Below, in pieces: positions 1,366 to 45,347 of a stretch of DNA of 64,000 nt. A program made the translations under genes and the position numbers. Within the stretch, counting starts at the first letter, position 1. The number at the start of each line of letters is the position of its first letter. This DNA is from Vampirovibrio chlorellavorus. Its GTDB lineage: Bacteria; Cyanobacteriota; Vampirovibrionia; Vampirovibrionales; Vampirovibrionaceae. The stretch spans positions 14,004 to 78,003 of the forward strand of contig NZ_QFWH01000005.1 in assembly GCF_003149375.1 (NCBI RefSeq). Direction: 5' to 3'. The notes under the pieces were generated by a model that was not told where the DNA came from, made no database searches, and saw only the letters and a list, made by a program, of their open reading frames with translations.

Positions 1366-2805
1366 TCAGGGTGCGCCTTCTGTCTTGAGCCTGTTTCTCA
1401 CCGCAAGTAAAAACAGGCCCAGTGCCATTAATAATAAATAGGAATTCATCAGCACCATCCAGGACAGGCCGTGCAGGCCCATCAGCTGAAGCCCCAGCCA
1501 GTCCATGCCAATGCGCAGCGCTAACAAAACCACGCCAATCAAAAGCAAGGGGCGAATCAGGTTGAGGTTATAGAAGCAACTGCTCATCAAACGCCAGAGC
1601 GCCGTGTAGGGAACCATCACAATCAGAATCTGATAACACTGCGACACCAGCATTGTATTGTGAGCGGTGAACGCTCCCCGTTCGTACACGACTTTGATCA
1701 ACCAGGGGGCAAACACCACCGAGCCCACAATCAGGGGTAAACTCCACAACAGGATTTGGACACTGGCGCCTTTCAGGATGGCAAGCGCCTTTTCCAGATC
1801 CTGCTCGGAGCAGGCCTGATTCAGGTCTGCCAGTTTGACCATTTGCAAATTGACGACCGTAAGACTTCCCGCGATCAGAACACTTACGTAAGCGTATCGA
1901 AAGGCGCTGGGCTCGCCGGTGGGCAAAAAACTCAAAAAGTAGTTGTCCACCAGGGCCGTCAGTGAGAAAACACCCCAGGTCAGGCTGACCGGTATTATTT
2001 TTTGCAGGAAAGACGCTGACCCTTCCGTGCGCCAAACCCACCGGGGCCGGATTTTCAACCCCACACAGTACATCAACAATTCCACCAGTTGGGAAAGGGG
2101 CAATGCGATTACCAGCCCCATTGGTCCCATCATCTTCAATAAAAGCACAAAGCTGACAATAAATAGCAACAGGCTGGTGATTCGGGGAAGCTGGTAGAGT
2201 GCAAACCGTTTTTCCTGAATGCAGAGTACCCGAAACATTTCAGCCACCTGAAACATAAAGCAGGACGGCAGAACCAGCCAGGTCAGCAGTAGCAGGTGCT
2301 GTAACTTCTCACCGGACCAGCTTGGCGCTATCAGTTGTGCAATGGGTTGATGAAGCAGGCCAATGGCTCCCCCGACAAGCAGGGTAAACAGAATGGTGTA
2401 ATTGAGCAAGACGACTAATAGCCTTTGCGGCGAAAAAGGCGCGTCATGTTGATCTGTCTGAGCTGGCTGGTTGACTGGATGCGCCTGCTTTCGGCTGGAC
2501 TCTGCCGACTCACACTGAGCCACCGCCGGAATCAGCGCGCCGTAGCCCAACTGCTCAAAATAGCTTCTGGTAAATATCAGGATATTATTAACCAGCGTGT
2601 AGGCGTCCATGAATTGAGCCAGCCCCAGAAAGGCCGTCATCACAATTTCTTTTAAAAAAGTCAGCCCTACCACCAGAATCTGCAAGAGAGCGATTTTAGA
2701 GCCGCCCTGCCGGGACAGGGACGCTAACTTTTGCCAGCTACCCGGCGGCAGTTTCCGATAAATTGACGCTTGAAATTGTGTGAAGCGTTTCAGGTGAATA
2801 AGCAT
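1366..2805 (-). CDS. polysaccharide biosynthesis flippase (Wzx-like, MOP/MATE-like superfamily) membrane protein
   Basis: 479 aa, about 12-14 hydrophobic helices along the whole length. First gene position inside a polysaccharide cluster. Typical Wzx size and topology. Confidence 0.55.
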   Translation of the reverse strand: MLIHLKRFTQFQASIYRKLPPGSWQKLASLSRQGGSKIALLQILVVGLTFLKEIVMTAFLGLAQFMDAYTLVNNILIFTRSYFEQLGYGALIPAVAQCESAESSRKQAHPVNQPAQTDQHDAPFSPQRLLVVLLNYTILFTLLVGGAIGLLHQPIAQLIAPSWSGEKLQHLLLLTWLVLPSCFMFQVAEMFRVLCIQEKRFALYQLPRITSLLLFIVSFVLLLKMMGPMGLVIALPLSQLVELLMYCVGLKIRPRWVWRTEGSASFLQKIIPVSLTWGVFSLTALVDNYFLSFLPTGEPSAFRYAYVSVLIAGSLTVVNLQMVKLADLNQACSEQDLEKALAILKGASVQILLWSLPLIVGSVVFAPWLIKVVYERGAFTAHNTMLVSQCYQILIVMVPYTALWRLMSSCFYNLNLIRPLLLIGVVLLALRIGMDWLGLQLMGLHGLSWMVLMNSYLLLMALGLFLLAVRNRLKTEGAP

Positions 2806-2810
2806 GTTCG

Positions 2811-3587
2811 TTAATGACTAGCCGGATGACTGGCAGGGCTGGACGATCTTGAAATCAGTTTTCGGAGTGATCGAAAAAAGTAGACAGCGGTTTGACGCAT
2901 CAGCCAAAGCTCCAGCTTGACGCTCCAATTGGTAATGTACCAGAGATCCGCGTCTGTTTTTTCCTGGATCTGATCCACCGTGGGATTCGGGTTTTTCATT
3001 TGAGCGTAGCCGGTGATTCCGGGCCTGAAAAAGTGCCTGCAACTGTAATTCTGAACATCCTCATCACGGAACCGCTTTACAAAAACAGGACGCTCCGGGC
3101 GTGGGCCTATCAATGACATTTCGCCCAACAGAATATTCCAGAGCTGGGGCAATTCATCCACGTGCGTTTTCCGTAAAAAGCGCCCAATTGCCGTAATTCG
3201 CGCATCTCCCTCCTGCACCCAGGTGGGGCCTGTTTTAGCTTCCGCCTGATCCACCATGGTACGAAACTTGATCAGGGTAAACGGCTTTTCATAAATCGAC
3301 AATCGCTCCTGACGAAATAAGACCGGCCCCGGCGAGGTCAGTTTAATGGCCAGGGCAATCAGCACAAAAAGGGGGGCAAAAAAAACCAGTCCCAGGCTGG
3401 CAAGGATCACATCGAACACGCGCTTGAAACCATACCACCGACGATACTCCACAGAGGGGGTAAACGGCATGTATTCCAGCAAAAAGCGCTCCGAGGCCGC
3501 TTCTGGCTCAGGAAGGGAAGATTGCCTGGGAAATGATGACGGTTCCATCAAAAAAACAAACTCCTCGATTGGCCTTATGCGTTGCAC
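2811..3587 (-). CDS. bacterial sugar transferase (polyprenyl-phosphate glycosyl-1-phosphate transferase, WbaP/WcaJ C-terminal type)
   Basis: FKRVFDVILASLGLVFFAPLFVLIALAIKLTSPGPVLFRQERLSIYEKPFTLIKFRTM matches the bacterial sugar transferase (PF02397-type) signature. True start is probably an internal Met. Confidence 0.75.
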   Translation of the reverse strand: MQRIRPIEEFVFLMEPSSFPRQSSLPEPEAASERFLLEYMPFTPSVEYRRWYGFKRVFDVILASLGLVFFAPLFVLIALAIKLTSPGPVLFRQERLSIYEKPFTLIKFRTMVDQAEAKTGPTWVQEGDARITAIGRFLRKTHVDELPQLWNILLGEMSLIGPRPERPVFVKRFRDEDVQNYSCRHFFRPGITGYAQMKNPNPTVDQIQEKTDADLWYITNWSVKLELWLMRQTAVYFFRSLRKLISRSSSPASHPASH

Positions 3588-4603
3588 GCCTTGTCCGTAT
3601 AGTTCACCAAAGGCTCACCGGCCTGCAAAGTATCCCCGCAGGATCCCTTTTGACACCGGATGTACTCCACCACCTCCGCCAGTCCGTCTTTAAAGGCGAC
3701 GCTCGGGCAAAACCCAAGCAGCGTCCTGGCCTTCTCGATACTGGATAAAGAGTGCCGCAAGTCGCCCCGACGCTCCGGTCGATGCGCCACTTCAAAATTC
3801 TGGAACCCCAGCGCCCTTAAGCATTCAATCAAATCCAGCAGAGAGCGCTTTTGACCGCTTCCGATATTCAGAACCTCAAACGGGTACTGTCCGGTATTCG
3901 CTAGCGCCTTCAGGTTGGCTTGCACCACGTCGGCCACATTGACAAAATCGCGGGTCTGCTTCCCGTTCCCAAACACAGTTAAATTCCGGTTTGAGAGCAA
4001 GTTGCCAATGAATAACGAAATAACGCCCGCATAGTCAGAACTCTGACTCTGCCGGGCTCCGTAAATATTAAAGTACCGCAAGCAGGTCACCTGCATGTGA
4101 TTAAACCTGGAATAAAACTGACCATACTGTTCCCCAACCAGTTTACTGAGCCCGTATTGGGAGGCTGGTTGCGGCAGTAAGCCTTCGTGGCACTCCGGAT
4201 ACTCCACCGGCCCATACACAGCGGCACTGGAGGCAAACACCAGATGCTTGACCCCGGCTTGTCCTGCCGCCTCAAACACGTTGCCCGTCCCCAGAATATT
4301 CACCTCATAAGTACTTTGCGGATCCCGAACCGACTCAGACACGGAGGCAATGGCCGCCTTGTGAAAAATGATATCCTGATCCCGGCAGGCTTGCGTTAAA
4401 GCGGGCATGTCGCGAATATCACCCTGAATGAACTCAACCTTTCCGCCGTGCTGTAGAATGTTATGGCGTTTACCTGTCGATAGATTATCAAACACACTCA
4501 CCCGATGCCCCTCCGACACCAGGGCATCCACCAGATGTGAACCGACAAAACCTGCCCCGCCAGTGACAAGGCAGTTCATACCCGAACGTTCAGACTTCGT
4601 CAT
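3575..4603 (-). CDS. NAD-dependent nucleotide-sugar epimerase/dehydratase (SDR family)
   Basis: N-terminal GGAGFVGSHLV Rossmann motif and catalytic YxxxK (SQYGLSK). About 335 aa, UDP-sugar 4-epimerase-like. Confidence 0.8.
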   Translation of the reverse strand: MTKSERSGMNCLVTGGAGFVGSHLVDALVSEGHRVSVFDNLSTGKRHNILQHGGKVEFIQGDIRDMPALTQACRDQDIIFHKAAIASVSESVRDPQSTYEVNILGTGNVFEAAGQAGVKHLVFASSAAVYGPVEYPECHEGLLPQPASQYGLSKLVGEQYGQFYSRFNHMQVTCLRYFNIYGARQSQSSDYAGVISLFIGNLLSNRNLTVFGNGKQTRDFVNVADVVQANLKALANTGQYPFEVLNIGSGQKRSLLDLIECLRALGFQNFEVAHRPERRGDLRHSLSSIEKARTLLGFCPSVAFKDGLAEVVEYIRCQKGSCGDTLQAGEPLVNYTDKACNA

Positions 4604-4687
4604 ACTTTAACACCCAACAAGCACTTTCTTGACTCTACTTTGGTTCATATCGGCGAGGGCAGGGAAAACTTTAAGCCAATTTCAAAT

Positions 4688-5866
4688 TCAGGACGAATTG
4701 GAGCCCAGCAGATAGGAAGCAAGCGCCTGCAGCTTTTGACTGGCGTCGAAATGACGAGAAACAGAATCGCGGGCGTTCTGGCTCATTGACTGGCAATACG
4801 CCGGATTTTCTATAACCTTCCTCACCAGGGCGGTAGCGCCCTCCACATCGCCATGCTTCACCAGAAATCCGTTGCACCCTGACTCCAGTATTTCACCCAT
4901 CCCGCAAACGTCCGAAGCCAGCACAGGCACACCAGCGGCCATGCTTTCCAAAACCGAGTTGGGACACCCCTCATAATCGGTAAATAAAACCGTGAAATCC
5001 AGATCGCCATAAACTTTGGGCATATCGGCGCAATAACCCGCCATCCCAATGCGATCCGTAAAACCCGAGGCTTGAATCAGGCGCTCCAGATGGGGGCGAT
5101 CCGGGCCTTCCCCGATCAAGACCCCGTAAACGTGCGGAAATTCCCGGCATAAGGCGGTCATCAACTGAATGAAATAATCGTAGCGCTTGCCCGGCACCAA
5201 GCGGCCCACCATGCCAATTTTAAAAGCACCGGGTGGTCGCGCTTCCGCAAAGGGAGCGGTATCGGAGGTTAGAGACGCTGAGCGGTTGGCAAATTCCGCA
5301 ATCGGAATGCCATCGTGAATGGTGTGAATCCGATCCGGGCGACAAATGCCCCCATTCATCATCTGCCGCCGAATATATTCGGACACCGTGATGTAACGGA
5401 CGCCCAGCAGGGCCAACCCTCGATGCATGAGGTAAATCATTTTGAGTGTGCGAGAGCCCGGTGGCGCCCCCTCTCCCCGAATAATGGCAAACCGACCCGG
5501 AACCCTGCACAACCAGCTTGCCACACCACTCAACCCAATCAACTTGACCCCTGAGGCCAGTACCACATCCGGCTTTTCCTTGAGAAAAACCTTGATGATG
5601 AAAAAAAGCACCTGAAGTTCCTGCCAGGGCCGAATAGCCCGATCGATGAGAGGAGAGTAATACGTTTTCACAGGTAAGCCGTTTTGCGCAATCGTCTGTC
5701 CTAGCCAGGTCTTTTCCGCGTTGGAGATCAACACCGTTTGCACACCCTTGGCAACCAGTGCTTCCGCCAACAGAAACGTCTGCTTTGTACCCCCGCCGTA
5801 TAAATGCTCATGGGCCAGCAGGATAACTTTTTGGGCCTTCACTTCGGGCTTCACTCTGGACTTCAC
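4688..5866 (-). CDS. glycosyltransferase family 4 (GT-B, group 1)
   Basis: C-terminal EX7E-type motif ESMAAGVPVLASDVCGMGEIL. About 390 aa GT4 architecture. Confidence 0.75.
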   Translation of the reverse strand: MKSRVKPEVKAQKVILLAHEHLYGGGTKQTFLLAEALVAKGVQTVLISNAEKTWLGQTIAQNGLPVKTYYSPLIDRAIRPWQELQVLFFIIKVFLKEKPDVVLASGVKLIGLSGVASWLCRVPGRFAIIRGEGAPPGSRTLKMIYLMHRGLALLGVRYITVSEYIRRQMMNGGICRPDRIHTIHDGIPIAEFANRSASLTSDTAPFAEARPPGAFKIGMVGRLVPGKRYDYFIQLMTALCREFPHVYGVLIGEGPDRPHLERLIQASGFTDRIGMAGYCADMPKVYGDLDFTVLFTDYEGCPNSVLESMAAGVPVLASDVCGMGEILESGCNGFLVKHGDVEGATALVRKVIENPAYCQSMSQNARDSVSRHFDASQKLQALASYLLGSNSS

Positions 5867-7308
5867 GCTTTTCTCCCTGCCAATAGAAGCGGCAAATCCT
5901 GATCCAGCACAAAGCCTGCCATCAACCAGACATAAGCAGTTTCAATGGGAGAATAGAGCTTGTTATGAAATGCCCCGGTCAGGAAAAACACCAGAAAACC
6001 GGAGCAAGCCATGGCGTAGCGAACATTGTGGGACAATTGTTGCGTGCGCAGCGTCTTGAACAACAAGACAGCGGTTATCAACAGGTAGGGGGTGTAGTAC
6101 AGAACGGTACCGATCAGGCCAAAGACCGATAAGGCACAGGCCAGGGTGTCGTGCAGGTTAAAGTGAGCCAGTTGACGTTCCCGGAACATGCCATACCCAA
6201 ACAAAAATCGGGTAACGGTTTGAAAGCGCGTCACGTTCTCGAGATTGATGCCCGCTTGATAATCCTGAATAATTTTTTCCCGGCTATGGTTGCCCGACTC
6301 AATTTGACCCGGTGTAAACCGATTTCCCAATTCGGGCGTTGCGCACAAAAACAGCGCTAACGGCACTAAAACCAGCAGGCATCCCACCGTAAAATTTTTA
6401 AGCTGCCGCCAGCTTTGAGTCATCAGCAGCGATAAAGCTGCCATCATCACCACCAGACCCAGCGCCACAATGGCAATGCGGGTTTGTGTCATAGCCAAAA
6501 CCACCAGTCCCAGAAGGACGGTGGAAAGCCAGTAGAGCTTCCATTTTCCTTTAGACAAAACCAGCTGGGTGCAAATAAAGGTGAGGAACACCACGATAAA
6601 CGGTCCCAGTCGCGTGGGTAAACGCATAATGGAGGAGACCCGTATCATCCCCCCTGCTTGTATAAACTGGCACACGCCATACAACAGAATGCCATTGAAC
6701 ACCACACTCAGGCACAACAGAAAACGCTTTAAAAATAGGGGATGATTGACGTAAAGATCGTAAAGTAAACAGGGAATATAAATCAGCGGATAGACAATGG
6801 TAAAGCCCAGCAGGGAAGATGCCCCGCCCAACGAGAGCGCCGGAAATCCCGGATCGAATTGCATGCGATTGGTAAGTTGGACGGGTATTTCAACTGAACC
6901 CATGGCGATGGCCGTAAAAAAGTAGATCAGTCCCAGCAGCAGTAAGGGCGCGACCAAAAAACGCAAGCGGGTACTTCGCCAGCGTAGCATCAGATAAATA
7001 CAGTTGGGCAGCGTGGCGGCCATCAGGGCGGGAGCGCATAGCGCCGAAAAAGCGTCTCCAAAAAAAATGAGGAAAGTATAAATCACCAGACACAGTCGAC
7101 TGTTATTCCAGCTTAAAAACCAGAAAAACGGCACCACGGGCAGCATCAGGCCAAGCAAAAGGTGTATTTTGGGAGAGAGGCCAAGGGCGTCAATCAGGAA
7201 AGCGGATTGAAAAAAAGTAGCCCACAGCAACAGGATCACGACAGCGAACATTCCAAACAAAACCAGCGGAAATGCCTGCGTTTGAGTCAGCGAACGGGGA
7301 TGGCTCAT
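5863..7308 (-). CDS. O-antigen ligase / Wzy-like polysaccharide polymerase family membrane protein
   Basis: 481 aa with more than 10 TM helices and a large periplasmic loop near the C-terminal third. Start overlaps the upstream gene end (translational coupling). Assignment by topology and context only. Confidence 0.45.
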   Translation of the reverse strand: MSHPRSLTQTQAFPLVLFGMFAVVILLLWATFFQSAFLIDALGLSPKIHLLLGLMLPVVPFFWFLSWNNSRLCLVIYTFLIFFGDAFSALCAPALMAATLPNCIYLMLRWRSTRLRFLVAPLLLLGLIYFFTAIAMGSVEIPVQLTNRMQFDPGFPALSLGGASSLLGFTIVYPLIYIPCLLYDLYVNHPLFLKRFLLCLSVVFNGILLYGVCQFIQAGGMIRVSSIMRLPTRLGPFIVVFLTFICTQLVLSKGKWKLYWLSTVLLGLVVLAMTQTRIAIVALGLVVMMAALSLLMTQSWRQLKNFTVGCLLVLVPLALFLCATPELGNRFTPGQIESGNHSREKIIQDYQAGINLENVTRFQTVTRFLFGYGMFRERQLAHFNLHDTLACALSVFGLIGTVLYYTPYLLITAVLLFKTLRTQQLSHNVRYAMACSGFLVFFLTGAFHNKLYSPIETAYVWLMAGFVLDQDLPLLLAGRKA

Positions 7309-8660
7309 GGCGTGACTACGTTGGTATTGTCCAGAATGTACTTGATATTGGCCGCGGGCAAGGTGATGGCAGAGGCCGCCCCAAACGTGGATTTAATCCA
7401 GTGCTTCCAGTTTCCTTTGGACACAATCACGGAATCATTGGGAAACAGAATCATATCTTTCCTGGTGGCATCCACTTTTAAAGCCAGCATTTGTTGATTG
7501 GGCAGGGTTCTGGCCACAATAACCTGCCGGGGCTCCGCTTTATCAACATCAAGCCCGGCTTTGGCCAGCACGCTTTGTAAGCTCATCTCGGTAGGGCTTA
7601 ACTGGTACACATCCGGACGCGTTACATAACCGTAGACCCGAATGGGATAGGTCTCCTGCCCCAGATTGCTGTTTGCCAGCAGTTTCAGTACCTCAGGGTG
7701 ATTCCACTGAGCGTTTTCCAGTCGGGGAACGTAGATCACATCTTCCAGCCCCAGGGCAACATCGTTCGCCAATGCCCCGTAAGCCAGTAATTCAACAATG
7801 TTGGCCTCCACGCAAGAGGCGTTATTCAGGTTAAACACCCTTACATGGGCCAAATCCGCATCGGCCAGTAAACCGCCCGCTTTCACCAGGGCTGAACTGA
7901 GGTGGTAATCCAGTCTGGGCGGATTCACGCCAAGCGGTGTGATGGCGGAATTATCCTGCCCATCCAGTAGATACAGTCCGGGTTTTTTTACCGCTCCCAG
8001 AATATAAATGCGCTGCGGGGCAATTTTGTCCAGTGACACCGTCACTGCGGGATGACGCAAGGCGCTTGCGAATCCCTTGGTCAATACCGCAGTCAAACTG
8101 TCTACACTGTGATTGATGGTATTGACCTTACCCAACAAGGGCAAGGCAATGGTGCCATCGGGGGCGATTAAAAGGTTCCGAAGGGAAAATTCCGGATGAC
8201 TCAGCACCTGCAAGGAAATGACATCCCCCGGCTTTAAATGATAGTCCTGCCACTCGGCTTTGGCCACCAAAGGGTGATTCTCTTGATGACTGAGCGAAAC
8301 CGGATGAAAGCCTTTTTCTGGAGATGAGGCCGATGAAGCGGGCTGAGTGCTTTCCAGCGTTGCCTGAGGGTCGGACTTTGCATTTTGAGACAGGAGCTGT
8401 GTCCACCAGACCGAGAAGTCCTTGTCCGTCAGCACCACTGAAGAGGTGCTTTTCAGGGAACTCAGGGAAAGCGGCGCCGGATCTCGCTCCGCTTCCTCCA
8501 ATGAAAAACGGGTAACCGCGGACTCCGCATTCGCCTGCTGATGAGGCCCTTTCGCGGGCTCTGTGGCCATGGCGTTCTGCATGCCGAGCAACACCAGTGC
8601 CCCCCACACAGACAAGGCGGCTAGGGATTTTGGGACATTCTGTTTGAGAATCAACGACAT
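7305..8660 (-). CDS. polysaccharide export protein (Wza-like outer-membrane exporter: Poly_export plus SLBB domains)
   Basis: Signal peptide (ALSVWGALVLLGMQNAMA). The motif YHLKPGDVISLQVL...APDGTIALPLLGKV is a typical Poly_export (PF02563) signature. Confidence 0.7.
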   Translation of the reverse strand: MSLILKQNVPKSLAALSVWGALVLLGMQNAMATEPAKGPHQQANAESAVTRFSLEEAERDPAPLSLSSLKSTSSVVLTDKDFSVWWTQLLSQNAKSDPQATLESTQPASSASSPEKGFHPVSLSHQENHPLVAKAEWQDYHLKPGDVISLQVLSHPEFSLRNLLIAPDGTIALPLLGKVNTINHSVDSLTAVLTKGFASALRHPAVTVSLDKIAPQRIYILGAVKKPGLYLLDGQDNSAITPLGVNPPRLDYHLSSALVKAGGLLADADLAHVRVFNLNNASCVEANIVELLAYGALANDVALGLEDVIYVPRLENAQWNHPEVLKLLANSNLGQETYPIRVYGYVTRPDVYQLSPTEMSLQSVLAKAGLDVDKAEPRQVIVARTLPNQQMLALKVDATRKDMILFPNDSVIVSKGNWKHWIKSTFGAASAITLPAANIKYILDNTNVVTP

Positions 8661-8707
8661 ACGATATTTTCCAGCTCTGTTCAGGAAACGGCTTTTGGGG
8701 GAATTTT

Positions 8708-10777
8708 TTAAGGGAAAACAACGTTCCCGACAATCTGCTCCGGCTGAATCGACGACTCCAGAAACTTCAATTCCCGGACATCGCTGGCGGACTTTGAAAT
8801 CCCCAGAATGACGCCATCAGCGATATCCTCGATCAGGGCAACCCTATTCTGTCGTTCGATTGCCGCAGGCTGACCAGCGACAGGATTGCCACCGGTAGCG
8901 GACATCCACGGGTGCAGGAAAATCAGGTGAAAGCCCTGCTGTGCTTGCAGGTTTTTCAGGAAGCCGGGATCCAGAATATCTTCATCCACAGTTTCAGCGA
9001 GTAACTGGTAAAGATTCTCCTGGGTACAGGAGCGATACAATTCCAGGCGTCCCAGTTTGAGAACCAGTCGCTTATTGCGGAAGGGATTGAAGAGTGCAAA
9101 GCCATCCAGTTCTGCGGCCCGTTGCGTGAAATATAAAACCTTCAGCTCCGGATGCTTAAAGGCGTACAGCCCGCTCAATACACTGGCCAGATTGCCAGGG
9201 TGCCAGAACATCTCGGGCTTTTTACCGGAGCCATCCACATAAATGGGCAAGGCGCAACGAGAGTCCGCATTGTCAAACAGGGAAATAAACAACAGGGTTT
9301 GAATCCCTCGCTTGCGAATCTGAAGGGCGATACCCTGACCAAGGGCCGCAAGCTCCTCATACAAAGTTTCGGTGGTACGGGGCAATCTGCCGGAAAAACT
9401 GCCCAGTGAGAGGCCCGGTCTTTCCAGCAACGGAATACGAGGATCCAGAAATTCAGCGATGGCCACACTGGACAGCGCCAGAACCAGACTGGCCATCCCC
9501 CCCAGTATTAAAGTGGTTTTCAAGGAAATGGGAAATACGGCATCGCCCTGTTCCGGCTCGATGGGTGGCGTCAAAACCACAAAGGCACCCAAATTCAGTA
9601 GGCTGGCTTGCTCCAGTATGGTTTCCTGAATTTTATCCTGTAGCTTTTCCTCTTCGCTTTTCAAGGCGTTCAGAGCCAAGCGCAAGTCATCCATGTCCTT
9701 TTTCTCAAAAGCGACCGCTTTAAAGCCACTATCCAGCTGAGACAAAAAACTCTCGTAATAGGATTTTTGCTGAAGCAGGGCTGCCCGCTGCGTCGTCAGC
9801 TCGATGAGCTGCTTGCCAAACGTAACGTCCAAATCACTGAAGGCCTTGTCCTCTCCCACCAGTGCGGCAGGATGAATGTTCTGGCTGTAACTGGACTGGA
9901 TGCGCTGACCAATCAAACGCTCCAGACGTTGAATCAGATCTTCTTTCTCCAGTACCACCGGATAGCTGTCTGTAAAGGCGGATTTCAGTTTTGCCAGTTC
10001 TCCCTTTTCCATGGCCAGTTGCTTCTGCCAGATTTCCAGCTTGGGATCACTTTTAATACTGACCAGGCGCTGTACCTGTGCGGGAGACAATCCCAATATT
10101 CTTTCCAGGTGTTTGATCTGCTTTTCAGTGGCCAGAATTTCAGCACTGGTAGTGCCCAGCAACTGTGTAAAATTGCTTTTTAACTTAACCAACTCCGAGT
10201 TTTTTAGATCAATATCGGTGGTGCCGCTGGCAGCTTCCACCTGTTTCAGGTTTTCGGCCAACTGGTGACGATTTCTCTGCACTTCTGCCAGTCGCACCTT
10301 CAGGAAGTCGATCCCCTTCAGGCGGGTTTCCTGAGCAATGTGCGCCAACGCCTCCTCGTAAGATTTGAGGGTATGATCCAGCACTTTTTTGGCAAAGTGA
10401 GCCGAAGTATCCTGAAAATACAGATCAATAACCTTGGTAACCTGACTCAGCTCCGTACTCACGTTGCTGTCGGCTCTCAAACGTCTCAGCAACAGGTCCT
10501 GGGCCACGTCCTCCCGCTTGGGAAACTCTTTTCTCAGCCGACTCACCACTTTATCAAGCACCAGATTGGACTTTAAAATCCGGATATGATCCAGGGTGTC
10601 ATCATACTCGTAAGCCTGATACTGGTTTGGAATTTTTCGCTGAATATAAACGCTGGATTTCACCTCATACACGGGGGCGCTCAAAAAGTGAATCAGCACG
10701 ACCGTCAGAAACGAAAAACAGAATATAGCCGTTGCCAGCCAGCGATGGCGCTTTAAGACCAGAAAAATGGAGTCCAT
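8708..10777 (-). CDS. polysaccharide co-polymerase (GumC/Wzc-like chain-length determinant) with degenerate C-terminal kinase-like domain
   Basis: N-terminal TM, long coiled-coil periplasmic region, second TM, then a roughly 250 aa cytoplasmic domain. I found no canonical Walker A (GxxxxGK[ST]) in that domain. Confidence 0.6.
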   Translation of the reverse strand: MDSIFLVLKRHRWLATAIFCFSFLTVVLIHFLSAPVYEVKSSVYIQRKIPNQYQAYEYDDTLDHIRILKSNLVLDKVVSRLRKEFPKREDVAQDLLLRRLRADSNVSTELSQVTKVIDLYFQDTSAHFAKKVLDHTLKSYEEALAHIAQETRLKGIDFLKVRLAEVQRNRHQLAENLKQVEAASGTTDIDLKNSELVKLKSNFTQLLGTTSAEILATEKQIKHLERILGLSPAQVQRLVSIKSDPKLEIWQKQLAMEKGELAKLKSAFTDSYPVVLEKEDLIQRLERLIGQRIQSSYSQNIHPAALVGEDKAFSDLDVTFGKQLIELTTQRAALLQQKSYYESFLSQLDSGFKAVAFEKKDMDDLRLALNALKSEEEKLQDKIQETILEQASLLNLGAFVVLTPPIEPEQGDAVFPISLKTTLILGGMASLVLALSSVAIAEFLDPRIPLLERPGLSLGSFSGRLPRTTETLYEELAALGQGIALQIRKRGIQTLLFISLFDNADSRCALPIYVDGSGKKPEMFWHPGNLASVLSGLYAFKHPELKVLYFTQRAAELDGFALFNPFRNKRLVLKLGRLELYRSCTQENLYQLLAETVDEDILDPGFLKNLQAQQGFHLIFLHPWMSATGGNPVAGQPAAIERQNRVALIEDIADGVILGISKSASDVRELKFLESSIQPEQIVGNVVFP

Positions 10778-11184
10778 GGCTGTCCAGCTCTCCCAAATGA
10801 CCGTTCTTGAACCCTTCGCTTGGGAAAAACGCGCCGTAGCCCCGGCAGGCTAAAGAACGTTGTTCGGTCAATCACCGATCCCAACCGGTCATGTTCATAT
10901 TAGTCTCAAGCCAGGACAGACTTTATCCTTTAAATACAGGAGTTATTGGCGTCCCGCTCACAGTCCCCTGAATGGGGTACAGCCTCGCGAACAACCACCC
11001 AAGCGGGGCCGAATCGGGTAAAAATCCAAACGTTCGAAGATTTATCCTGCCAGTTCATTATTTTCACTTTTCAGCGTTTTAGTTTTTTTTCCAGCCTTTC
11101 AGCCCGAGACTGGAAACTGGCAAACAGTGCCAAAAGCGGGCCAAAACGCGTTTGGCAGGACGTGAATGGCTTAAGCGGGCCTGT

Positions 11185-11490
11185 TTACTTTTTCAGCCGC
11201 TTGTAACCCATATAGCTGGCGGATGACAAAGCGGCAACCGCGACCAGGGCCAGACCCGGCGTTTTTTTGGGGCCATTCCCATTACCATGTCCGTTGGCAT
11301 TTCCGTTTCCATTCCCGGGAGCCGCCTCCGCAGTGAGGGTAACGGCGCTGAGCAACAGGACGGTTACCGTACACAGCAAACCAGCGATTCTGAAAAATTG
11401 ATTCACAGCAATGCCTCTCATACTTATTTTACCCACAGAGAAATAAGAGTCCCTCATTTGAATGTTGATCCATGTTTTTATAAATGTCAA
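11185..11490 (-). CDS. small secreted Gly/Asn-repeat protein with C-terminal TM helix plus basic tail (candidate exosortase substrate)
   Basis: Predicted signal peptide ...LLLSAVTLTAEA, then APGNGNGNANGHGNGNGPKKTPGLALVAVAALSSASYMGYKRLKK ending at the stop. The track ORF starts at a TTG; the real start is probably the internal ATG near 11457 or 11421. Confidence 0.4.
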   Translation of the reverse strand: MTFIKTWINIQMRDSYFSVGKISMRGIAVNQFFRIAGLLCTVTVLLLSAVTLTAEAAPGNGNGNANGHGNGNGPKKTPGLALVAVAALSSASYMGYKRLKK

Positions 11491-11582: not shown

Positions 11583-13115
11583 GTGAAAATTTCTGATTTA
11601 CGAAAAAAATTAACTCTGGACGGTTTGTTACTGGCTGTCTTGCTGGTACTTCTCAGTCTGCCCGTGTTGACAAGCTGGCTGGAAACACTCTGGCAACGCC
11701 CGCTGGATCACAATTTAATTCAGCTGGGAGGCGCTATTGTATTGCTGTTTGCCCTCTTGAACAGCTTCAAGCGTGAGGCACTCAAAAAAGCCCTCACCGG
11801 GTCACCCCTTCTGAACACAAGCTGGATAGGCCTGGCTTTGTTAAGCGGGGTTCTTTTGGTGCACGCCCTGTTTGACTTTCTGCATATTAAATCGTTGTAC
11901 TGGATGAGCTATTTGGGAATACTGGCTTTTTCAGGCTGGACATTGCTTGGATTTCAGCGTTTCCTGCACTGTTTGCCGTACTTTCTGTTTTCAGCGTTTC
12001 TGCTGCCCGTGGTCAACGCGGAAATCCACACAGCCATCAGCCTTCCGTTGCAACTGGCTTCAACCTGGCTGGCCACCCAATTTTCCGCCTTGTTTATACC
12101 ACTCACCTACCATCAGAATATGATGTACATTAAGGGAGAAACTTTTGAAATCACCGCTGATTGCAGTGGCCTGCAGAGCTGGGTCGGGTTTATTTTCGCG
12201 GGGCTGCTCAAACATCTTTTTGAAGGGCTTCAAAAGCTGGAATTGGCTTTACTCATCCCCATTTCCCTGATTCTGGCCCTGTTTCTGAATAGTGTAAGGC
12301 TATGCCTGACCGCGCTGGTTGCCTACTTCGCCTCCGCCGATCAGGCGCTGGCCATCCATACCAATCTGGATTATGTGCTGCTACCCCTTGGGTTCTATCT
12401 CATCTGGGAAAGTGGCCATTGGCTCAAAGCCCGGTTCCCGGTCAAAGGGGAAGAACCGAATCCGGACAAAGCGCATCCCGCCTCTTCCGCAAAAAACAGG
12501 CTGATTACCGGAATCACGGCGTGTCTGTTCCTTTGCGTCATCGTGTTTCACTGGGTGGTGAACGTGCCACTGAACCACCCGACGCCAACGACTCTGAGCG
12601 TTCCCCATCATCTGGCAGACTGGCAGGGTTCGGAGCTGGCTCTATCGGAGGCCGAAAAAAAATCGCTGGCAGGGGCGCAAATTATCAATCGGGCCTATCA
12701 CCGCCCCAATCAACGGGTGTTGCTGACCGTGCTGCAAAGTGACTCTCCTGAATATATTCATAACTTTTGGGGATGTTTGGTGGGGCAGGGGCTTCAGCCC
12801 AAACAGGTGGCGCAGTTAAAGCTGACCCTGAATCAGCGGGTTTACGCCATTCCGGTCCTGCAGTATGAGTATGAGGGAAGGCAGTATTACGAAGCGCTCT
12901 GGTACCAGTGGGATAGCGGCATTACGGCCAGTCGGTGGCAATGGTATCAGGCGGTACTGCAATCCCGCTTTGGAAAACCACCCTCTGGCTGGAAGATTGT
13001 CACCGTCACCATGCCCTTACCGCTGCAGAACCCTACAGAATCCCGGCAGGACGATATCAGCATTTTGCAGGACTTTTCCGCGCTGATGCTTAAGACCCTG
13101 AGCCCAAATCCCTGA
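11583..13115 (+). CDS. exosortase family protein fused to EpsI-like C-terminal domain
   Basis: Polytopic N-terminal half with the exosortase-type motif ITADCSGLQS (conserved Cys) and downstream NSVRLCL (Arg). Soluble roughly 190 aa C-terminal domain resembling the exosortase-associated EpsI family. GTG start. Confidence 0.65.
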   Translation: MKISDLRKKLTLDGLLLAVLLVLLSLPVLTSWLETLWQRPLDHNLIQLGGAIVLLFALLNSFKREALKKALTGSPLLNTSWIGLALLSGVLLVHALFDFLHIKSLYWMSYLGILAFSGWTLLGFQRFLHCLPYFLFSAFLLPVVNAEIHTAISLPLQLASTWLATQFSALFIPLTYHQNMMYIKGETFEITADCSGLQSWVGFIFAGLLKHLFEGLQKLELALLIPISLILALFLNSVRLCLTALVAYFASADQALAIHTNLDYVLLPLGFYLIWESGHWLKARFPVKGEEPNPDKAHPASSAKNRLITGITACLFLCVIVFHWVVNVPLNHPTPTTLSVPHHLADWQGSELALSEAEKKSLAGAQIINRAYHRPNQRVLLTVLQSDSPEYIHNFWGCLVGQGLQPKQVAQLKLTLNQRVYAIPVLQYEYEGRQYYEALWYQWDSGITASRWQWYQAVLQSRFGKPPSGWKIVTVTMPLPLQNPTESRQDDISILQDFSALMLKTLSPNP

Positions 13116-13138
13116 AGCCAGATTCCTGATGCGGGTTC

Positions 13139-13408
13139 TTGATCATGAATTGGGCAAGGCTGCCTTATCCCTCACTGAATCAAGGAGACCCACCTGTGCC
13201 CGAGAAAAAGATGCCAGCTTACGCCCTGCTTTTGATGGCCTCTCTTGTGCCATTGGTTCTGGGGAGCGGGATACTGATCTTTCAGGCGCAGGCCAGAGCG
13301 CTGCTGCAGGCGATCGGTCTCGATCCCCTGTGGATAGGAACCGTGCTGGTGGGGACAGGCTTGATAGACATCGCATTGGCCGCTTTTCTCAAGAGCAGGA
13401 TCCAATAA
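13139..13408 (+). CDS. hypothetical small membrane protein
   Basis: ORF with two hydrophobic helices (ALLLMASLVPLVLGSGILIF; LWIGTVLVGTGLIDIALAAFL). No similarity recognised. Confidence 0.25.
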   Translation: MIMNWARLPYPSLNQGDPPVPEKKMPAYALLLMASLVPLVLGSGILIFQAQARALLQAIGLDPLWIGTVLVGTGLIDIALAAFLKSRIQ

Positions 13409-13588
13409 GCCAGAGATCTCCGGAAATACAGGGCCATCCGAGTCTTCTTCCCCAAAACCGATTTGAACCTTTGTAACATCCTGAGGACAAGGGTTTTGCC
13501 AGAGACGTTTGTTTGGTGTAGTTTAAAAGGGTTCAAGCAAGGGCTTTCTATTCAAGCCTTTCAAGTGGCTTCATTTACAACATAAAAT

Positions 13589-21211: not shown

Positions 21212-21430
21212 ATGGAACCGGAATCCGCTCACCTGATTTTACCCGCCAACCTGTATCGGCAATTCAGCCGTTTGAAAACCATGGGCCAGTTTCAAAGCGA
21301 TGCGGACGTGTTGCAAGCCAGCCTGACCGCGCTGGAGCAGCAGTGGGCACACCACCGCCTGGAAAGGGCTCACGGCAGAACCCCCTACATGTCCCGCCCT
21401 CCCATGAGTATTGAGGACTATGACACCTGA
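21212..21430 (+). CDS. small ribbon-helix-helix-like (ParD/CopG-type) protein, hypothetical
   Basis: ATG at 21212 lies 6 nt after GGGAG. 72 aa; the AHLILPANLYRQF beta-strand then helices (LQASLTALEQQW) resemble RHH antitoxin folds. The track ORF extends further upstream. Confidence 0.3.
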   Translation: MEPESAHLILPANLYRQFSRLKTMGQFQSDADVLQASLTALEQQWAHHRLERAHGRTPYMSRPPMSIEDYDT

Positions 21431-23397
21431 GCGGGCCAATCCACGATGCCATCGTCCGCCGGGTCCGCCGGGTCCGCCGGGGCGTCATTCCCTCGGGCTC
21501 TGGACAGGCACAGTTCGGATGCCTGACGGACTGTGGGCAAAATCTGTTCCTCCAGAAAGCTGGCCGCCGACTGGCAAAAGGTTTTAATCACCTTCTGGGC
21601 CTTCAAGGGGCCATCCGGTAGCGTTAAAGTTTCCTGAAACTGCTCCCGATACGCTCGCATTTCATGAATCAGCAAATAGGCGGCAAAGGGGGCTTCCGAA
21701 AATCGGGTGTAAATGGCCTGATTCACCCCCAGGGTCAGGTTGGCCAGCTTCCGCAAATCGGATTGATTGCGGCCCGCCAATCGTCCCTGCTCTTTTAAAA
21801 AGCGGATGTGACCGATCAGTTCCACCTGCAAATCCTGAATCGCTTTGTTCAGGGACTTGGCCCGACCCTGTTGCGCTTCCGCCGTCCATGCCGGTGGCTG
21901 GGACAGGGCGTGGGGCTGCTTCCAGCAGGGCCACTGACCCACCCAGCGCTGTAAGTCCAGCAGCGGGAAGCCTTCGATATGCGCGCCGCCCAGGGAGGCG
22001 TTCCACAGTTGCGCAGGTCGTTCGCTTTTGGCGTTCAAGGCGGCCATCTCTTCCAGATGAATCAAGAAACTCTGGTAGGACTGCAAGGTGGGCAGTGGCT
22101 TGCCATCCTGCCCCGGCACGGTGGTCAGGTCGTAAGGGGCGGTGTACAAGCTCTCGGAGGCTTCCAGATCCAGCTGCCCCTTCTCGTTCAGGCGCATAGC
22201 GACGCCACCGGCGTACACCTGATTGTGAGGAAAGGCCAGATCCTGCCCGACCAGCGCAATGGGATTACAGCCCATCCGTTGGGCCATCTGGAAGCCAATG
22301 ATCGACACGGTACCCCCGCCGCCCAAACGGCAATGCTTGCGCTGCAAGGCCTCATCCAGAAAATCCACAAACTGCATGTTATTTTGAGCCAGCATCAACA
22401 GCTTGCCCCGGCTGGGCATGTCAAACACAGCGGGCTGGGTAAAGGGGCTCATAACAAAGGTGATCTGCTCCAGGTAGGCGTCTGGCAAGCCATGCACCTG
22501 CTCCTTCATGCCGTTGGCGTCGTAAAACAAGGCGAAATCCGGGGTAATGCCGTGATCGTGTAAACGATGCAAAGCCCCGCCTACGGCAATCAGCACCACG
22601 GCATCAGCCAAAGCCCGAACCCAGGGTAGGGCCGCATCCAGAGACGGCCCCCGGGATATGACCAGGGCGGGCTTGTCTGTAAAAGAATCCACCAAGTCAT
22701 CCAGAGTGGGCATGGCGGCAAAATTCGGGGCGTTGCCAAAGAATTGCTGAATCCATTTCTGGTGGAAGTGCTGGCCCGTTTTAAAGTCCTGCACCCGAAA
22801 CAGTTCCATGCGGGTAATCTGCTCCATCAGCGGCTGAATTTCCTGAGCCAATAAAGCGGCACTTCCCCGCAGGGTTAAAATATCCAGCTTGTATTGACTG
22901 TAAAGTTTTTTACGCAAGTACAGCAAAAAGTCCTGCTGATCGCAGAACAGGGCCACCCGGGGCAGCGACAGCAAATGGGCCAGATCCACGTTTTCCAGTA
23001 CAAAGCGCAGCAAGGCCGCATCCGGCTCATACACCACCATCTGACCGGGGCTTTTTTCACTCAGGGCCTCCAGCAGGTACCCCAACCCCAGACCCAGCAC
23101 CACATGCACCCGATCCGCCACCAGGGTGGCCTGTTGGGCAATGACCGCCTCCGCCTCACTCAGTGGGCCCTGAGGATCATGCAAGGCCACCCCCCGGTAC
23201 AACAGGGTGTAGCCGCCATCCGGACAGGGGTTCAGCTCAAACTCGGTGATGGGCGATACGGCCCGCAACTGGTCCACCGTCGCCGCATGCTGGGCATGGG
23301 TGGATAACAAGGCCTGACAATTGGATTCAAAATACATAGGGGCCACCCTCGTTGCTGGCTGTGGGCACTGCTTCAGTTTAGCGTCCCAAACCGGCAA
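21418..23397 (-). CDS. DUF115 / MptE-like (Maf, motility-accessory-factor family) putative glycosyltransferase
   Basis: Central segment ALVISRGPSLD ... GGGGTVSIIGFQMA ... ALVGQDLAF matches the conserved Maf/DUF115 core. 659 aa with additional N- and C-terminal helical regions. Confidence 0.55.
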   Translation of the reverse strand: MPVWDAKLKQCPQPATRVAPMYFESNCQALLSTHAQHAATVDQLRAVSPITEFELNPCPDGGYTLLYRGVALHDPQGPLSEAEAVIAQQATLVADRVHVVLGLGLGYLLEALSEKSPGQMVVYEPDAALLRFVLENVDLAHLLSLPRVALFCDQQDFLLYLRKKLYSQYKLDILTLRGSAALLAQEIQPLMEQITRMELFRVQDFKTGQHFHQKWIQQFFGNAPNFAAMPTLDDLVDSFTDKPALVISRGPSLDAALPWVRALADAVVLIAVGGALHRLHDHGITPDFALFYDANGMKEQVHGLPDAYLEQITFVMSPFTQPAVFDMPSRGKLLMLAQNNMQFVDFLDEALQRKHCRLGGGGTVSIIGFQMAQRMGCNPIALVGQDLAFPHNQVYAGGVAMRLNEKGQLDLEASESLYTAPYDLTTVPGQDGKPLPTLQSYQSFLIHLEEMAALNAKSERPAQLWNASLGGAHIEGFPLLDLQRWVGQWPCWKQPHALSQPPAWTAEAQQGRAKSLNKAIQDLQVELIGHIRFLKEQGRLAGRNQSDLRKLANLTLGVNQAIYTRFSEAPFAAYLLIHEMRAYREQFQETLTLPDGPLKAQKVIKTFCQSAASFLEEQILPTVRQASELCLSRARGNDAPADPADPADDGIVDWPAQVS

Positions 23398-44345: not shown

Positions 44346-44404
44346 CACCTCAGGAGATCTTCACCATCAAGCCCTTTAACCGGAGTCGTGAGGACAAGCA
44401 GCCA

Positions 44405-45343: not shown

Positions 45344-45347
45344 CCCC

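What the first reader, a model, noticed from the sequence alone, without database searches (positions are those of the whole stretch)
1366..10777. Seven-gene EPS export/biosynthesis operon whose Wzc/GumC-like co-polymerase carries a degenerate (Walker-A-less) kinase-like domain
The operon is contiguous on the minus strand and includes two start/stop overlaps (3575..3587 and 5863..5866, plus 7305..7308). The order is co-polymerase, Wza, Wzy/ligase-like, GT4, epimerase, sugar transferase, flippase. The 689-aa co-polymerase has the two-TM coiled-coil periplasmic architecture plus a cytoplasmic C-terminal domain where BY-kinases carry Walker A/B and a Tyr cluster. I find no GxxxxGK[ST] motif and no Tyr-rich tail. 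A pseudokinase co-polymerase next to an exosortase locus, where the kinase is usually a separate EpsG-like protein, may reflect an alternative regulatory arrangement. A roughly 400 nt untranslated leader (10778..11184) precedes the operon.
Basis: partly seen in the sequence, partly recalled or inferred. Interest (0 to 1): 0.5.

Follow-up and report, generated by a model that had tools for sequence, protein, structure and literature searches.

The report
Kinase-dead Wzc-like co-polymerase in Vampirovibrio

Summary
Window 1366..10777 (minus strand) holds seven contiguous genes: PCP, Wza/OPX, Wzy-like, GT4, epimerase, small phosphoglycosyl transferase and MurJ/Wzx-like flippase. The stated ATGA/GTGA overlaps are present. 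The organism is Vampirovibrio chlorellavorus.

- **Motifs.** In all 17 family members Walker A is replaced by a 13-50-residue insertion, the Walker A' DxDxR is lost, the Walker B Asp is His/Gln/Asn, and the ExxRxxR ring motif and the Tyr tail are absent.
- **Selection.** The domain is under purifying selection (dN/dS 0.12-0.17).
- **No partner enzymes seen.** No kinase or phosphatase gene lies in the 64-kb window or near four distant homologues.

Fused kinase-dead PCP-2 proteins are already known (PssP2, GumC, SMc01795; stand-alone EcpK and HfsB), so this is a divergent new member, probably a phosphorylation-independent scaffold.

The "400-nt leader" is a spacer after a conserved small gene encoding a candidate exosortase substrate. 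Only its proximal ~170 nt are conserved, and no RNA structure is supported.

The parts
9437..10777 (-). PCP gene, residues 1-447: TM1, alpha/beta base, long helical periplasmic domain, TM2 (PCP-2 body)
   Evidence: TM segments predicted at 14-32 and 417-435. Wzz domain at 25.3 bits and TIGR03007 over residues 7-447. AF2 shows helices spanning 126-396. Foldseek best hits are full-length Wzc, E 1.7e-16.
8708..9436 (-). PCP gene, residues 448-689 plus stop codon: cytoplasmic BY-pseudokinase domain (BY-kinase fold, all catalytic motifs lost)
7305..8660 (-). Wza-like outer-membrane polysaccharide export (OPX) protein, 451 aa
   Evidence: Poly_export at 61.3 bits and SLBB_2 at 40.6 bits. A signal-peptide-like N-terminus is visible. 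It follows the PCP gene in every family locus examined.
5863..7308 (-). Wzy-like polymerase (O-antigen ligase/Wzy_C superfamily), 481 aa, about 10-12 TM segments
   Evidence: No Pfam or NCBIfam hit of its own. About 10-12 hydrophobic segments. 31% identity, E 1e-53, to the Wzy_C-positive protein at the same position in L006. 44% identity to the L004 orthologue.
4688..5866 (-). GT4 glycosyltransferase, 392 aa
   Evidence: Glycos_transf_1 at 111.5 bits and Glyco_transf_4 at 36.7 bits.
3575..4603 (-). NAD-dependent nucleotide-sugar epimerase (GalE/TviC-like), 342 aa
   Evidence: Epimerase at 207.4 bits. GalE at 192.7 bits and TviC at 163 bits, both below the equivalog cut-offs.
2811..3587 (-). 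Small polyprenyl-phosphate phosphoglycosyl transferase (Bac_transf), 258 aa, priming enzyme
   Evidence: Bac_transf at 211.1 bits. TIGR03025 at 271 bits over the catalytic C-terminal part. One TM segment.
1366..2805 (-). MurJ/Wzx-type flippase, 479 aa
   Evidence: MurJ at 77.6 bits and Polysacc_synt_3. About 10 TM segments.
10778..10950 (-). Conserved non-coding block directly upstream of the PCP start codon (promoter, operator or 5' UTR; function unknown). An invariant 43-nt run lies at 10863..10905.
   Evidence: 84-95% identical among four Vampirovibrio genomes, against synonymous pS of 0.30-0.64 in the adjacent gene. No Rfam match. No compensatory pairs, and MFE z = -1.5.
10951..11184 (-). 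Variable distal part of the spacer, not conserved in sequence or length
   Evidence: The whole spacer is 407, 311, 373 and 196 nt in the four genomes, and the distal part does not align.
11185..11421 (-). Conserved 78-aa gene: signal peptide, (Gly-Asn)n stretch, then a 'PKKTPGLALVAVAALSSASYMGYKRLKK' C-terminal TM helix plus basic tail. Candidate exosortase substrate, possibly the first gene of the transcription unit.
   Evidence: Sequence. Conserved in L001-L003, with the MRGIAVNQ start supported by L002. It is the only ORF in the window with such a tail. No family model matches it.
11583..13115 (+). Divergently transcribed exosortase fused to an EpsI-like (DUF3485) domain, 510 aa
   Evidence: Exosortase_EpsH at 83.5 bits and DUF3485 at 31.9 bits. 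TIGR04178 signature at 34.7 bits against a cut-off of 23. The best subtype, XrtW, reaches only 64.8 bits against a cut-off of 425.

Best explanation
Shown. The locus is a self-contained Wzx/Wzy-dependent exopolysaccharide pathway. Its co-polymerase is a Wzc-type PCP-2a with a fused cytoplasmic bacterial-tyrosine pseudokinase domain. That domain is homologous to BY-kinase catalytic domains and keeps their fold. It has lost the P-loop (a 29-residue insertion sits between strand beta1 and helix alpha1), the Walker A' DxDxR, the Walker B Asp (His here), the ExxRxxR ring-interface motif and the C-terminal Tyr cluster. It is maintained by purifying selection.

Inferred. The domain can neither bind or hydrolyse ATP in the canonical way nor be autophosphorylated, so there is no Wzc/Wzb-type phosphorylation cycle. 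It most likely acts as a structural scaffold at the cytoplasmic base of the PCP oligomer, stabilising or timing assembly of the PCP-Wzy-Wza machine through protein-protein contacts alone. This is the model proposed for EcpK/HfsB, GumC and PssP2.

Pathway steps, inferred from the families:
1. The small PGT primes undecaprenyl phosphate with a sugar supplied via the epimerase.
2. The single GT4 completes a short repeat unit.
3. The MurJ-like flippase flips it.
4. The Wzy-like protein polymerises it.
5. The PCP and Wza export it.
For: - Gene content and order.
- Homology: hhalign 93.8%, E 1.8e-7 over 141 columns. Reversed and shuffled controls give ≤0.3%.
- Motif loss in all 17 members, while all 9 authentic BY-kinase controls have GK[ST], [DE]xDxR, the Walker B Asp and a Tyr tail, and 8 of 9 a full ExxRxxR motif.
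- Purifying selection: dN/dS 0.12-0.17.
- The cluster PCP-Wza-Wzy-GT4 is conserved around distant members.
- No ParA/MinD/BY-kinase, LMW-PTP or PHP phosphatase gene in the 64-kb window or within ±10 kb of four distant homologues.
- Precedent and scaffold model: PMC12004946, PMC9800525, PMC4182512.
Against: - Nothing here tests function. Loss of ATP binding and the lack of phosphorylation are inferred from sequence and a predicted structure.
- The canonical ring-interface motif (ExxRxxR) is also missing, so an octameric ring formed by this domain in the Wzc manner is not assured.
- The rest of the genome could not be searched for a trans-acting BY-kinase or phosphatase.
- The N-terminal third of the domain (helix, beta1, insertion) aligns to BY-kinases only at low confidence, so the exact position equivalent to the Walker A Lys is approximate.
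Confidence: 0.8

Rival explanations
1. The domain is a pseudokinase that still works within a phosphorylation circuit. A separate active BY-kinase, with a phosphatase, encoded elsewhere in the genome would pair with it or phosphorylate it, as eukaryotic pseudokinases pair with active kinases.
For: The genome outside this 64-kb window could not be searched. The family keeps an invariant Tyr (LYRS, residue 581 of the full protein) and several other Tyr residues in the domain.
Against: There is no Tyr cluster or flexible tail to serve as substrate. No kinase or phosphatase gene lies in the window or near four distant homologues. In M. xanthus the pseudokinase EcpK appears independent of the active BY-kinases (PMC12004946).
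Confidence: 0.1
2. The remodelled P-loop region (a 13-50-residue insertion between beta1 and alpha1) has become a new binding site for a small ligand or a partner protein. The partner could be the priming transferase, the GT4 or the exosortase system. The domain would then be a regulatory sensor or adaptor rather than a passive scaffold.
For: An insertion is present in every member at the same place, with the conserved features 'LPIY' and 'FW.PG' among the Vampirovibrio-type members. The domain is under purifying selection.
Against: The insertion varies in length and sequence across the wider family and is modelled with lower confidence. No partner or ligand is indicated by any data here.
Confidence: 0.1
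3. The domain is a cryptic active kinase or NTPase that binds nucleotide through non-canonical residues.
For: The P-loop NTPase-like fold is retained. Distant members keep the first Asp of Walker A' ('LLVDCS').
Against: No GK[ST] occurs anywhere near the P-loop position in 17 members. The Walker B Asp is His, Gln or Asn in all. The second Walker A' Asp and the Arg are lost. There are no substrate tyrosines.
Confidence: 0.03
4. The domain is a functionless, decaying remnant of a former kinase.
For: It evolves about 2-3 times faster than the periplasmic part (dN/dS 0.12-0.17 against 0.04-0.06).
Against: dN/dS is far below 1. The domain is full length with a confident fold, and it is retained in all 17 members down to about 28% identity, with invariant core residues and an invariant C-terminal 'G..(V/L)FP'.
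Confidence: 0.02

Closest known systems
PssP2 of Rhizobium leguminosarum (PCP with a kinase-fold C-terminal domain lacking all BY-kinase motifs; PMC4182512)
   Same: Single polypeptide with a PCP body plus a cytoplasmic domain of BY-kinase-like fold. No Walker A, A' or B and no Y-cluster. Part of a Wzx/Wzy-type EPS system.
   Different: PssP2 is proteobacterial. No detectable sequence relationship was found: the exhaustive HMMER search with the C-terminal profile found only 10 representative proteins (9 genuine, ~580-730 aa, with this architecture, plus one spurious repeat protein). PssP2 is described as much smaller than PssP and acts alongside a second PCP. Here the protein is the only PCP in the cluster. 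PssP2 has genetic data; this protein has none.
GumC of Xanthomonas campestris ('pseudo-BY-kinase' in the review PMC9800525); NCBI names this protein 'GumC family'
   Same: A PCP working with an OPX protein (GumB/Wza) in a Wzx/Wzy pathway. Phosphorylation-independent, with no Y-cluster.
   Different: No GumC sequence was compared directly here. The annotation 'GumC family' rests on the N-terminal PCP part only. The C-terminal domain here has no family-model hit at all.
Fused PCP-2/BY-pseudokinase variants listed by Cuthbertson et al. 2009, as cited in PMC12004946 (S. meliloti SMc01795, M. japonicum Mlr8439, V. vulnificus VV1_2305, B. ceti BCETI_6000729)
   Same: The transmembrane/periplasmic part and a kinase-dead BY-kinase-like domain are joined in one polypeptide.
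   Different: All of those are Proteobacteria. This family is seen in Vampirovibrio (non-photosynthetic Cyanobacteria lineage) and in metagenomic relatives, and it appears to be a separate, strongly diverged lineage.
EcpK/EpsV of Myxococcus xanthus and HfsB/HfsA of Caulobacter crescentus (stand-alone BY pseudokinases; PMC12004946)
   Same: BY-kinase fold without Walker motifs or a Tyr tail. Required partner of a PCP-2. Proposed scaffold mechanism independent of phosphorylation.
   Different: Those are separate proteins that dock onto the C-terminus of the PCP. Here the domain is covalently fused, so binding/unbinding cycles cannot be the control step. EcpK ends in a basic helix, whereas this protein ends directly after the last strand (…VVFP).
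Wzc of E. coli (canonical PCP-2a BY-kinase)
   Same: Overall architecture (TM1, periplasmic helical domain, TM2, cytoplasmic alpha/beta domain). Gene is adjacent to wza. Best structural match for both the domain and the full-length model.
   Different: The equivalents of K540 (Walker A), D562/D564 (Walker A') and D642 (Walker B) are absent, as are the ExxRxxR motif and the Tyr cluster at 708-718. There is no wzb-like phosphatase gene in the locus.

Membership tests
Active BY-kinase (Wzc/Etk/CapB/EpsG type) | Walker A P-loop GxxxxGK[ST] directly after strand beta1 | tested here: not met
   No [AG]xxxxGK[ST] in any of 17 members. A GK[ST] triplet occurs in five members, but only by chance, outside the P-loop position. 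Instead, 13-50 residues lie between beta1 and alpha1 (29 in this protein), and 'HPG' precedes alpha1. All 9 control BY-kinases have GK[ST].
Active BY-kinase (Wzc/Etk/CapB/EpsG type) | Walker A' motif hhhhDxDxR | tested here: not met
   Aligned by hhalign to 'VLYFTQRAA' (T and R in place of the two Asp). Distant members keep only the first Asp ('LLVDCS') and lose the second Asp and the Arg.
Active BY-kinase (Wzc/Etk/CapB/EpsG type) | Walker B motif hhhhDxxP (DTPP) with a catalytic Asp | tested here: not met
   Aligned to 'HLIFLHPWM'. The Asp position is His, Gln or Asn in all 17 members.
Active BY-kinase (Wzc/Etk/CapB/EpsG type) | C-terminal Tyr-rich cluster (autophosphorylation substrate) | tested here: not met
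   The protein ends '…VGNVVFP', two residues after the last strand, at the equivalent of about Wzc residue 696. Tyr count in the last 20 residues is 0 in 16 members and 1 in the other.
Active BY-kinase (Wzc/Etk/CapB/EpsG type) | ExxRxxR oligomerisation motif on helix alpha2 (ring interface I1; PMC9800525) | tested here: not met
   The helix preceding beta1 reads 'TETLYEELAALGQGIALQIRKR' (family pattern ELxxxYQxxAL). No E..[RK]..R occurs there in any member, whereas 8 of 9 controls have the full motif on that helix and the ninth (Azospirillum) ends in Gly. This part of the alignment is low confidence, but the regex result does not depend on the alignment.
Active BY-kinase (Wzc/Etk/CapB/EpsG type) | BY-kinase catalytic-domain fold (P-loop NTPase, MinD/ParA-related) | tested here: met
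PCP-2a (Wzc-like polysaccharide co-polymerase) | Two transmembrane helices flanking a large, mostly helical periplasmic domain | tested here: met
   TM segments at 14-32 and 417-435. AF2 helices spanning 126-396. Full-length Wzc chains are the best Foldseek hits, E 1.7e-16, followed by WzzE, KpsE and FepE. Sequence models are weak (Wzz 25.3 bits, TIGR03007 32 bits) and there is no PDB sequence hit.
PCP-2a (Wzc-like polysaccharide co-polymerase) | Cytoplasmic BY-kinase(-like) domain fused after TM2 | tested here: met
   Residues 448-689.
PCP-2a (Wzc-like polysaccharide co-polymerase) | Encoded next to an OPX (Wza) gene within a Wzx/Wzy cluster | tested here: met
   The Wza gene starts 47 nt downstream. 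Wzy-like and flippase genes are in the same operon. The same arrangement is seen in distant loci.
Phosphorylation-independent PCP-2 with BY pseudokinase (PssP2 / GumC / SMc01795 fused type; EcpK, HfsB stand-alone type) | BY-kinase-like fold together with absence of Walker A/A'/B and of the Tyr tail | tested here: met
   The definition follows PMC12004946.
Phosphorylation-independent PCP-2 with BY pseudokinase (PssP2 / GumC / SMc01795 fused type; EcpK, HfsB stand-alone type) | No ATP binding or Tyr phosphorylation; required for polysaccharide synthesis | not testable with these tools
   Needs biochemistry and genetics.
Phosphorylation-independent PCP-2 with BY pseudokinase (PssP2 / GumC / SMc01795 fused type; EcpK, HfsB stand-alone type) | Common descent with the named proteobacterial examples (as opposed to independent loss of activity) | not tested
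The exhaustive HMMER search with the C-terminal profile returned only this narrow family (10 representatives), which argues against a close relationship.
XrtA/PEP-CTERM-type exosortase EPS locus | Exosortase (EpsH family) gene in the locus | tested here: met
   Exosortase_EpsH at 83.5 bits. TIGR04178 at 34.7 bits against a cut-off of 23. No subtype model reaches its cut-off, the best being XrtW at 64.8 against 425.
XrtA/PEP-CTERM-type exosortase EPS locus | Canonical PEP-CTERM substrates and a separate TIGR03018/EpsG-type tyrosine autokinase | tested here: not met
   No kinase gene in 64 kb. The only candidate substrate has TPG rather than PEP before its TM helix and basic tail, and it matches no model.

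The most novel reading that the evidence does not exclude
The Vampirovibrio-type proteins would be an independently evolved lineage of kinase-dead PCP-2a. It is invisible to all current sequence models. In this reading the former ATP site, disrupted by a lineage-specific insertion, has become a new interaction or ligand site that couples polysaccharide polymerisation to the adjacent exosortase system and its minimal 78-aa TPG-type substrate. That would be a phosphorylation-free control mode for surface-polymer assembly in a predatory, non-photosynthetic cyanobacterial relative.
Probability: 0.12. Interest if true: 0.55.

Novelty: new member of a known kind. Interest (0 to 1): 0.3.

Why it matters
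It extends the recently defined phosphorylation-independent PCP-2 subfamily to the Vampirovibrionia (Melainabacteria) lineage. It also gives a clean natural example in which every catalytic and ring-forming motif is gone while the fold is kept under selection. That is useful for asking what the BY-kinase domain does apart from phosphorylation. In practice, the C-terminal domain is missed by Pfam, NCBIfam and PDB sequence searches, so such proteins are annotated only as 'GumC family' or 'uncharacterized'. The polysaccharide itself may matter for how V. chlorellavorus attaches to Chlorella, but nothing here tests that.

Tried and rejected
- **Sequence-model searches of the C-terminal domain.** All gave nothing relevant: Pfam, NCBIfam including BY-kinase models at E ≤ 10, and PDB profile searches.
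- **Exhaustive HMMER over 1.8 billion representatives.** It found no bridge to active kinases, only the narrow family. One hit, P0017, is a spurious repeat protein.
- **Separate kinase or phosphatase in the window.** None found.
- **Whole-genome search for a BY-kinase.** Not possible.
- **Leader as a structured or known RNA.** No Rfam family at the gathering threshold, and only a chance-level snoRNA hit at E 0.1. RNAalifold found 0 compensatory pairs. MFE z = -1.54.
- **Promoter and terminator scan.** No sigma-70-like promoter on the operon strand, and terminator-like hairpins at chance level. No ops/JUMPstart-like element is conserved among the relatives, by inspection of the alignment.
- **Primary source.** Cuthbertson et al. 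2009 (PMC2650888) is not held, so its content is cited only through PMC12004946.
- **Other literature.** Nothing on XrtW and nothing on this locus in the V. chlorellavorus genome paper.

Full report
**Source and gene map.** The 689-aa protein is 100% identical to a protein that NCBI names 'GumC family protein [Vampirovibrio chlorellavorus]'. Two junctions are 4-nt start/stop overlaps: GCC**ATGA**GCC at 7305..7308 and GC**GTGA**AG at 5863..5866. The third is a 13-nt overlap if the GTG at 3587 is the true start. Pfam and NCBIfam assign Poly_export+SLBB (Wza/OPX), GT4, NAD-dependent epimerase, Bac_transf (a small priming phosphoglycosyl transferase) and a MurJ-like flippase.

**The Wzy-like protein.** The 481-aa protein matches no model. 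It has about 10-12 hydrophobic segments. It is 31% identical (E 1e-53) to a protein at the same position in a distant locus that does carry Wzy_C, so the 'Wzy/ligase-like' call is supported. The same seven-gene order is present in another Vampirovibrio genome.

**The co-polymerase body.** Only the first ~80 residues touch the Wzz model (25.3 bits, cut-off 25.5). TIGR03007, the XrtA-system chain-length determinant, aligns weakly over residues 7-447. Two TM segments lie at 14-32 and 417-435. A full-length AF2 model (pLDDT 74) shows TM1, an alpha/beta base, helices spanning 126-396, TM2 and a cytoplasmic alpha/beta domain. Its best Foldseek matches are full-length Wzc chains (E down to 1.7e-16), followed by WzzE, KpsE and FepE. 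Global TM-scores are low because the domain orientations differ, but the architecture is that of a PCP-2a.

**The C-terminal domain: sequence searches.** Residues 448-689 match nothing in Pfam, in NCBIfam even at E ≤ 10, or in the PDB by profile. An exhaustive HMMER search of 1.8 billion representative proteins with a profile of the domain found only 10 proteins. Nine are genuine family members of about 580-730 aa and one is spurious.

**The C-terminal domain: structure and profile comparison.** An AF2 model from the 10-sequence alignment is confident (pLDDT 80.9, pTM 0.82).
- The first 31 Foldseek hits are all BY-kinases.
- I built a BY-kinase profile from E. coli Wzc plus eight diverse plasmid-borne kinases and compared it with a 17-sequence profile of the family. 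hhalign gives 93.8% probability, E 1.8e-7, over 141 columns.
- Reversed or column-shuffled controls give ≤0.3%.

The domain is therefore a true BY-kinase homologue, not just a generic Rossmann-like fold.

**Motif by motif.**
- All nine control kinases carry [ST]SxxxxxGK[ST], [DE]xDxR, the Walker B Asp (D[TCVA][PS]P) and a Tyr-rich tail. Eight of the nine carry a full ExxRxxR motif; the Azospirillum control ends in Gly instead of Arg.
- Strand beta1 ('TLLFIS') is followed by 29 residues (13-50 across the family) before helix alpha1, with 'HPG' where GK[ST] should be.
- Walker A' aligns to 'VLYFTQRAA'.
- The Walker B Asp aligns to His, and is His, Gln or Asn in all 17 members.
- The helix before beta1 has no E..[RK]..R.
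- The chain ends '…VVFP' two residues after the last strand, at about the position of Wzc residue 696, so the whole Tyr-cluster tail is missing.

No member has a Walker A anywhere.

**Is the domain functional?** Across four Vampirovibrio genomes dN/dS is 0.12-0.17 for residues 448-689, against 0.04-0.06 for residues 1-447. Constraint is looser but clearly purifying. The domain is also retained full length down to about 28% identity.

**Context.**
- No ParA/MinD/BY-kinase-like protein, LMW-PTP or PHP phosphatase is encoded in the 64-kb window.
- Four distant family members sit in the same PCP-Wza-Wzy-like-GT4 cluster, with an epimerase, PGT or flippase nearby. None has a kinase or phosphatase gene within ±10 kb.
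- Those distant loci have no exosortase, so the exosortase link is specific to Vampirovibrio and is not a feature of the protein family.
- Among GTDB species representatives, close relatives were found only in three Vampirovibrio genomes. That scan used patterns from the closest members, and the taxonomy of the distant metagenomic members is unknown.

**Mechanism.**
- Shown: a Wzx/Wzy gene set with a PCP-2a whose kinase domain is catalytically gutted but conserved.
- Inferred from established knowledge of Wzc (an octameric ring of kinase domains, trans-phosphorylation of the tail, dissociation, and resetting by Wzb; PMC9800525, PMC12004946): none of that cycle can run here.
- Most likely role: a phosphorylation-independent scaffold at the cytoplasmic base of the PCP, as proposed for EcpK/HfsB, GumC and PssP2.
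- Two points remain open. Because the domain is fused, on/off binding cannot be the control step. Because the ExxRxxR interface is absent, ring formation in the Wzc manner is uncertain.

**Comparison with what is known.** Kinase-dead PCP-2 proteins are documented.
- PssP2 of R. leguminosarum lacks Walker A/A'/B and the Y-cluster, has a kinase-like fold by HHpred, is not phosphorylated, and affects EPS chain length (PMC4182512).
- GumC is called a 'pseudo-BY-kinase' in a review (PMC9800525).
- Blocher et al. [quoted passage not shown] 2009 (SMc01795, Mlr8439, VV1_2305, BCETI_6000729) (PMC12004946).

This protein meets the defining features of that kind and fails every catalytic criterion of an active BY-kinase. 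What is new is the lineage, the extreme divergence (invisible to all sequence models) and the large P-loop insertion. I rate it a new member of a known kind.

**The 'leader'.** Directly upstream, on the same strand, is a conserved 78-aa gene (11185..11421). It encodes a signal peptide, a Gly-Asn repeat and the C-terminal tail 'PKKTPGLALVAVAALSSASYMGYKRLKK'. This looks like an exosortase sorting signal with TPG in place of PEP. It lies between the operon and a divergent exosortase-EpsI fusion.

The spacer between this gene and the PCP start is 407, 311, 373 and 196 nt in the four genomes. Only the proximal ~170 nt align, at 84-95% identity including an invariant 43-nt run at 10863..10905, whereas synonymous sites next door differ at 30-64%. 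So a constrained non-coding element exists. However, Rfam finds nothing, there are no compensatory changes, folding is not exceptional (z -1.5), and consensus scans show no clear promoter or terminator signal. Whether it is a promoter/operator or a 5' UTR cannot be decided from sequence.

**Verdict.** Novelty is modest and interest is 0.3.

Noticed in passing
window 11185..11421 (-): Conserved 78-aa gene encoding a signal peptide, a (Gly-Asn)n stretch and the C-terminal tail 'PKKTPGLALVAVAALSSASYMGYKRLKK' (motif, TM helix, basic tail). It looks like an exosortase sorting signal with TPG instead of PEP. It matches no Pfam or NCBIfam model and is the only such ORF in the window. After both cleavages only a peptide of about 20 aa would remain. 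It may be the first gene of the EPS transcription unit.
   Followed up: partly
window 10778..10950 (-), invariant run 10863..10905: Non-coding block upstream of the PCP gene that diverges 4-6 times more slowly than neighbouring synonymous sites in four Vampirovibrio genomes. It contains a 43-nt invariant run, GACTAATATGAACATGACCGGTTGGGATCGGTGATTGACCGAA, with a TGACCG direct repeat and an ACCGGT palindrome. No Rfam match and no covariation, so it may be an operator or promoter.
   Followed up: partly
window 11583..13115 (+): Exosortase (EpsH domain) fused to a DUF3485/EpsI-like domain. It fits no curated exosortase subtype: the best, XrtW, scores 64.8 bits against a cut-off of 425. It is probably an undescribed subtype whose cognate signal would be the TPG-type tail.
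   Followed up: partly
window 13130..13408 (+); L003 7623..7841 (-): A small two-TM protein ('…LFIGIFLVGAGFMDIAFAAFLKSKEQ' in L003) is conserved immediately downstream of the exosortase. The 115-aa ORF 13129..13476 listed mechanically in another frame is probably spurious.
   Followed up: no
loci of P0014 (no DNA held) and L006 2064..4040: Distant family loci carry an asparagine-synthase-like gene (EpsI-type, typical of exosortase EPS loci), a CDP-OH_P_transf gene and very large proteins without Pfam hits (1780 aa and 1188 aa) beside the PCP cluster, but no exosortase within ±10 kb.
   Followed up: no
window 21418..23397 (-): A 659-aa protein with MptE-like/Maf (motility-associated factor, flagellin glycosyltransferase-like) domains, possibly a second glycan-related function in the window.
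   Followed up: no
window 41253..46970 (+): A large secreted-looking arabinofuranosidase-like protein (1030 aa) is followed by a malectin-domain protein and a 572-aa protein with an N-terminal pilin-type methylation motif. With the GH35 beta-galactosidase at 34062..36620, these may belong to the prey cell-wall-degrading repertoire.
   Followed up: no
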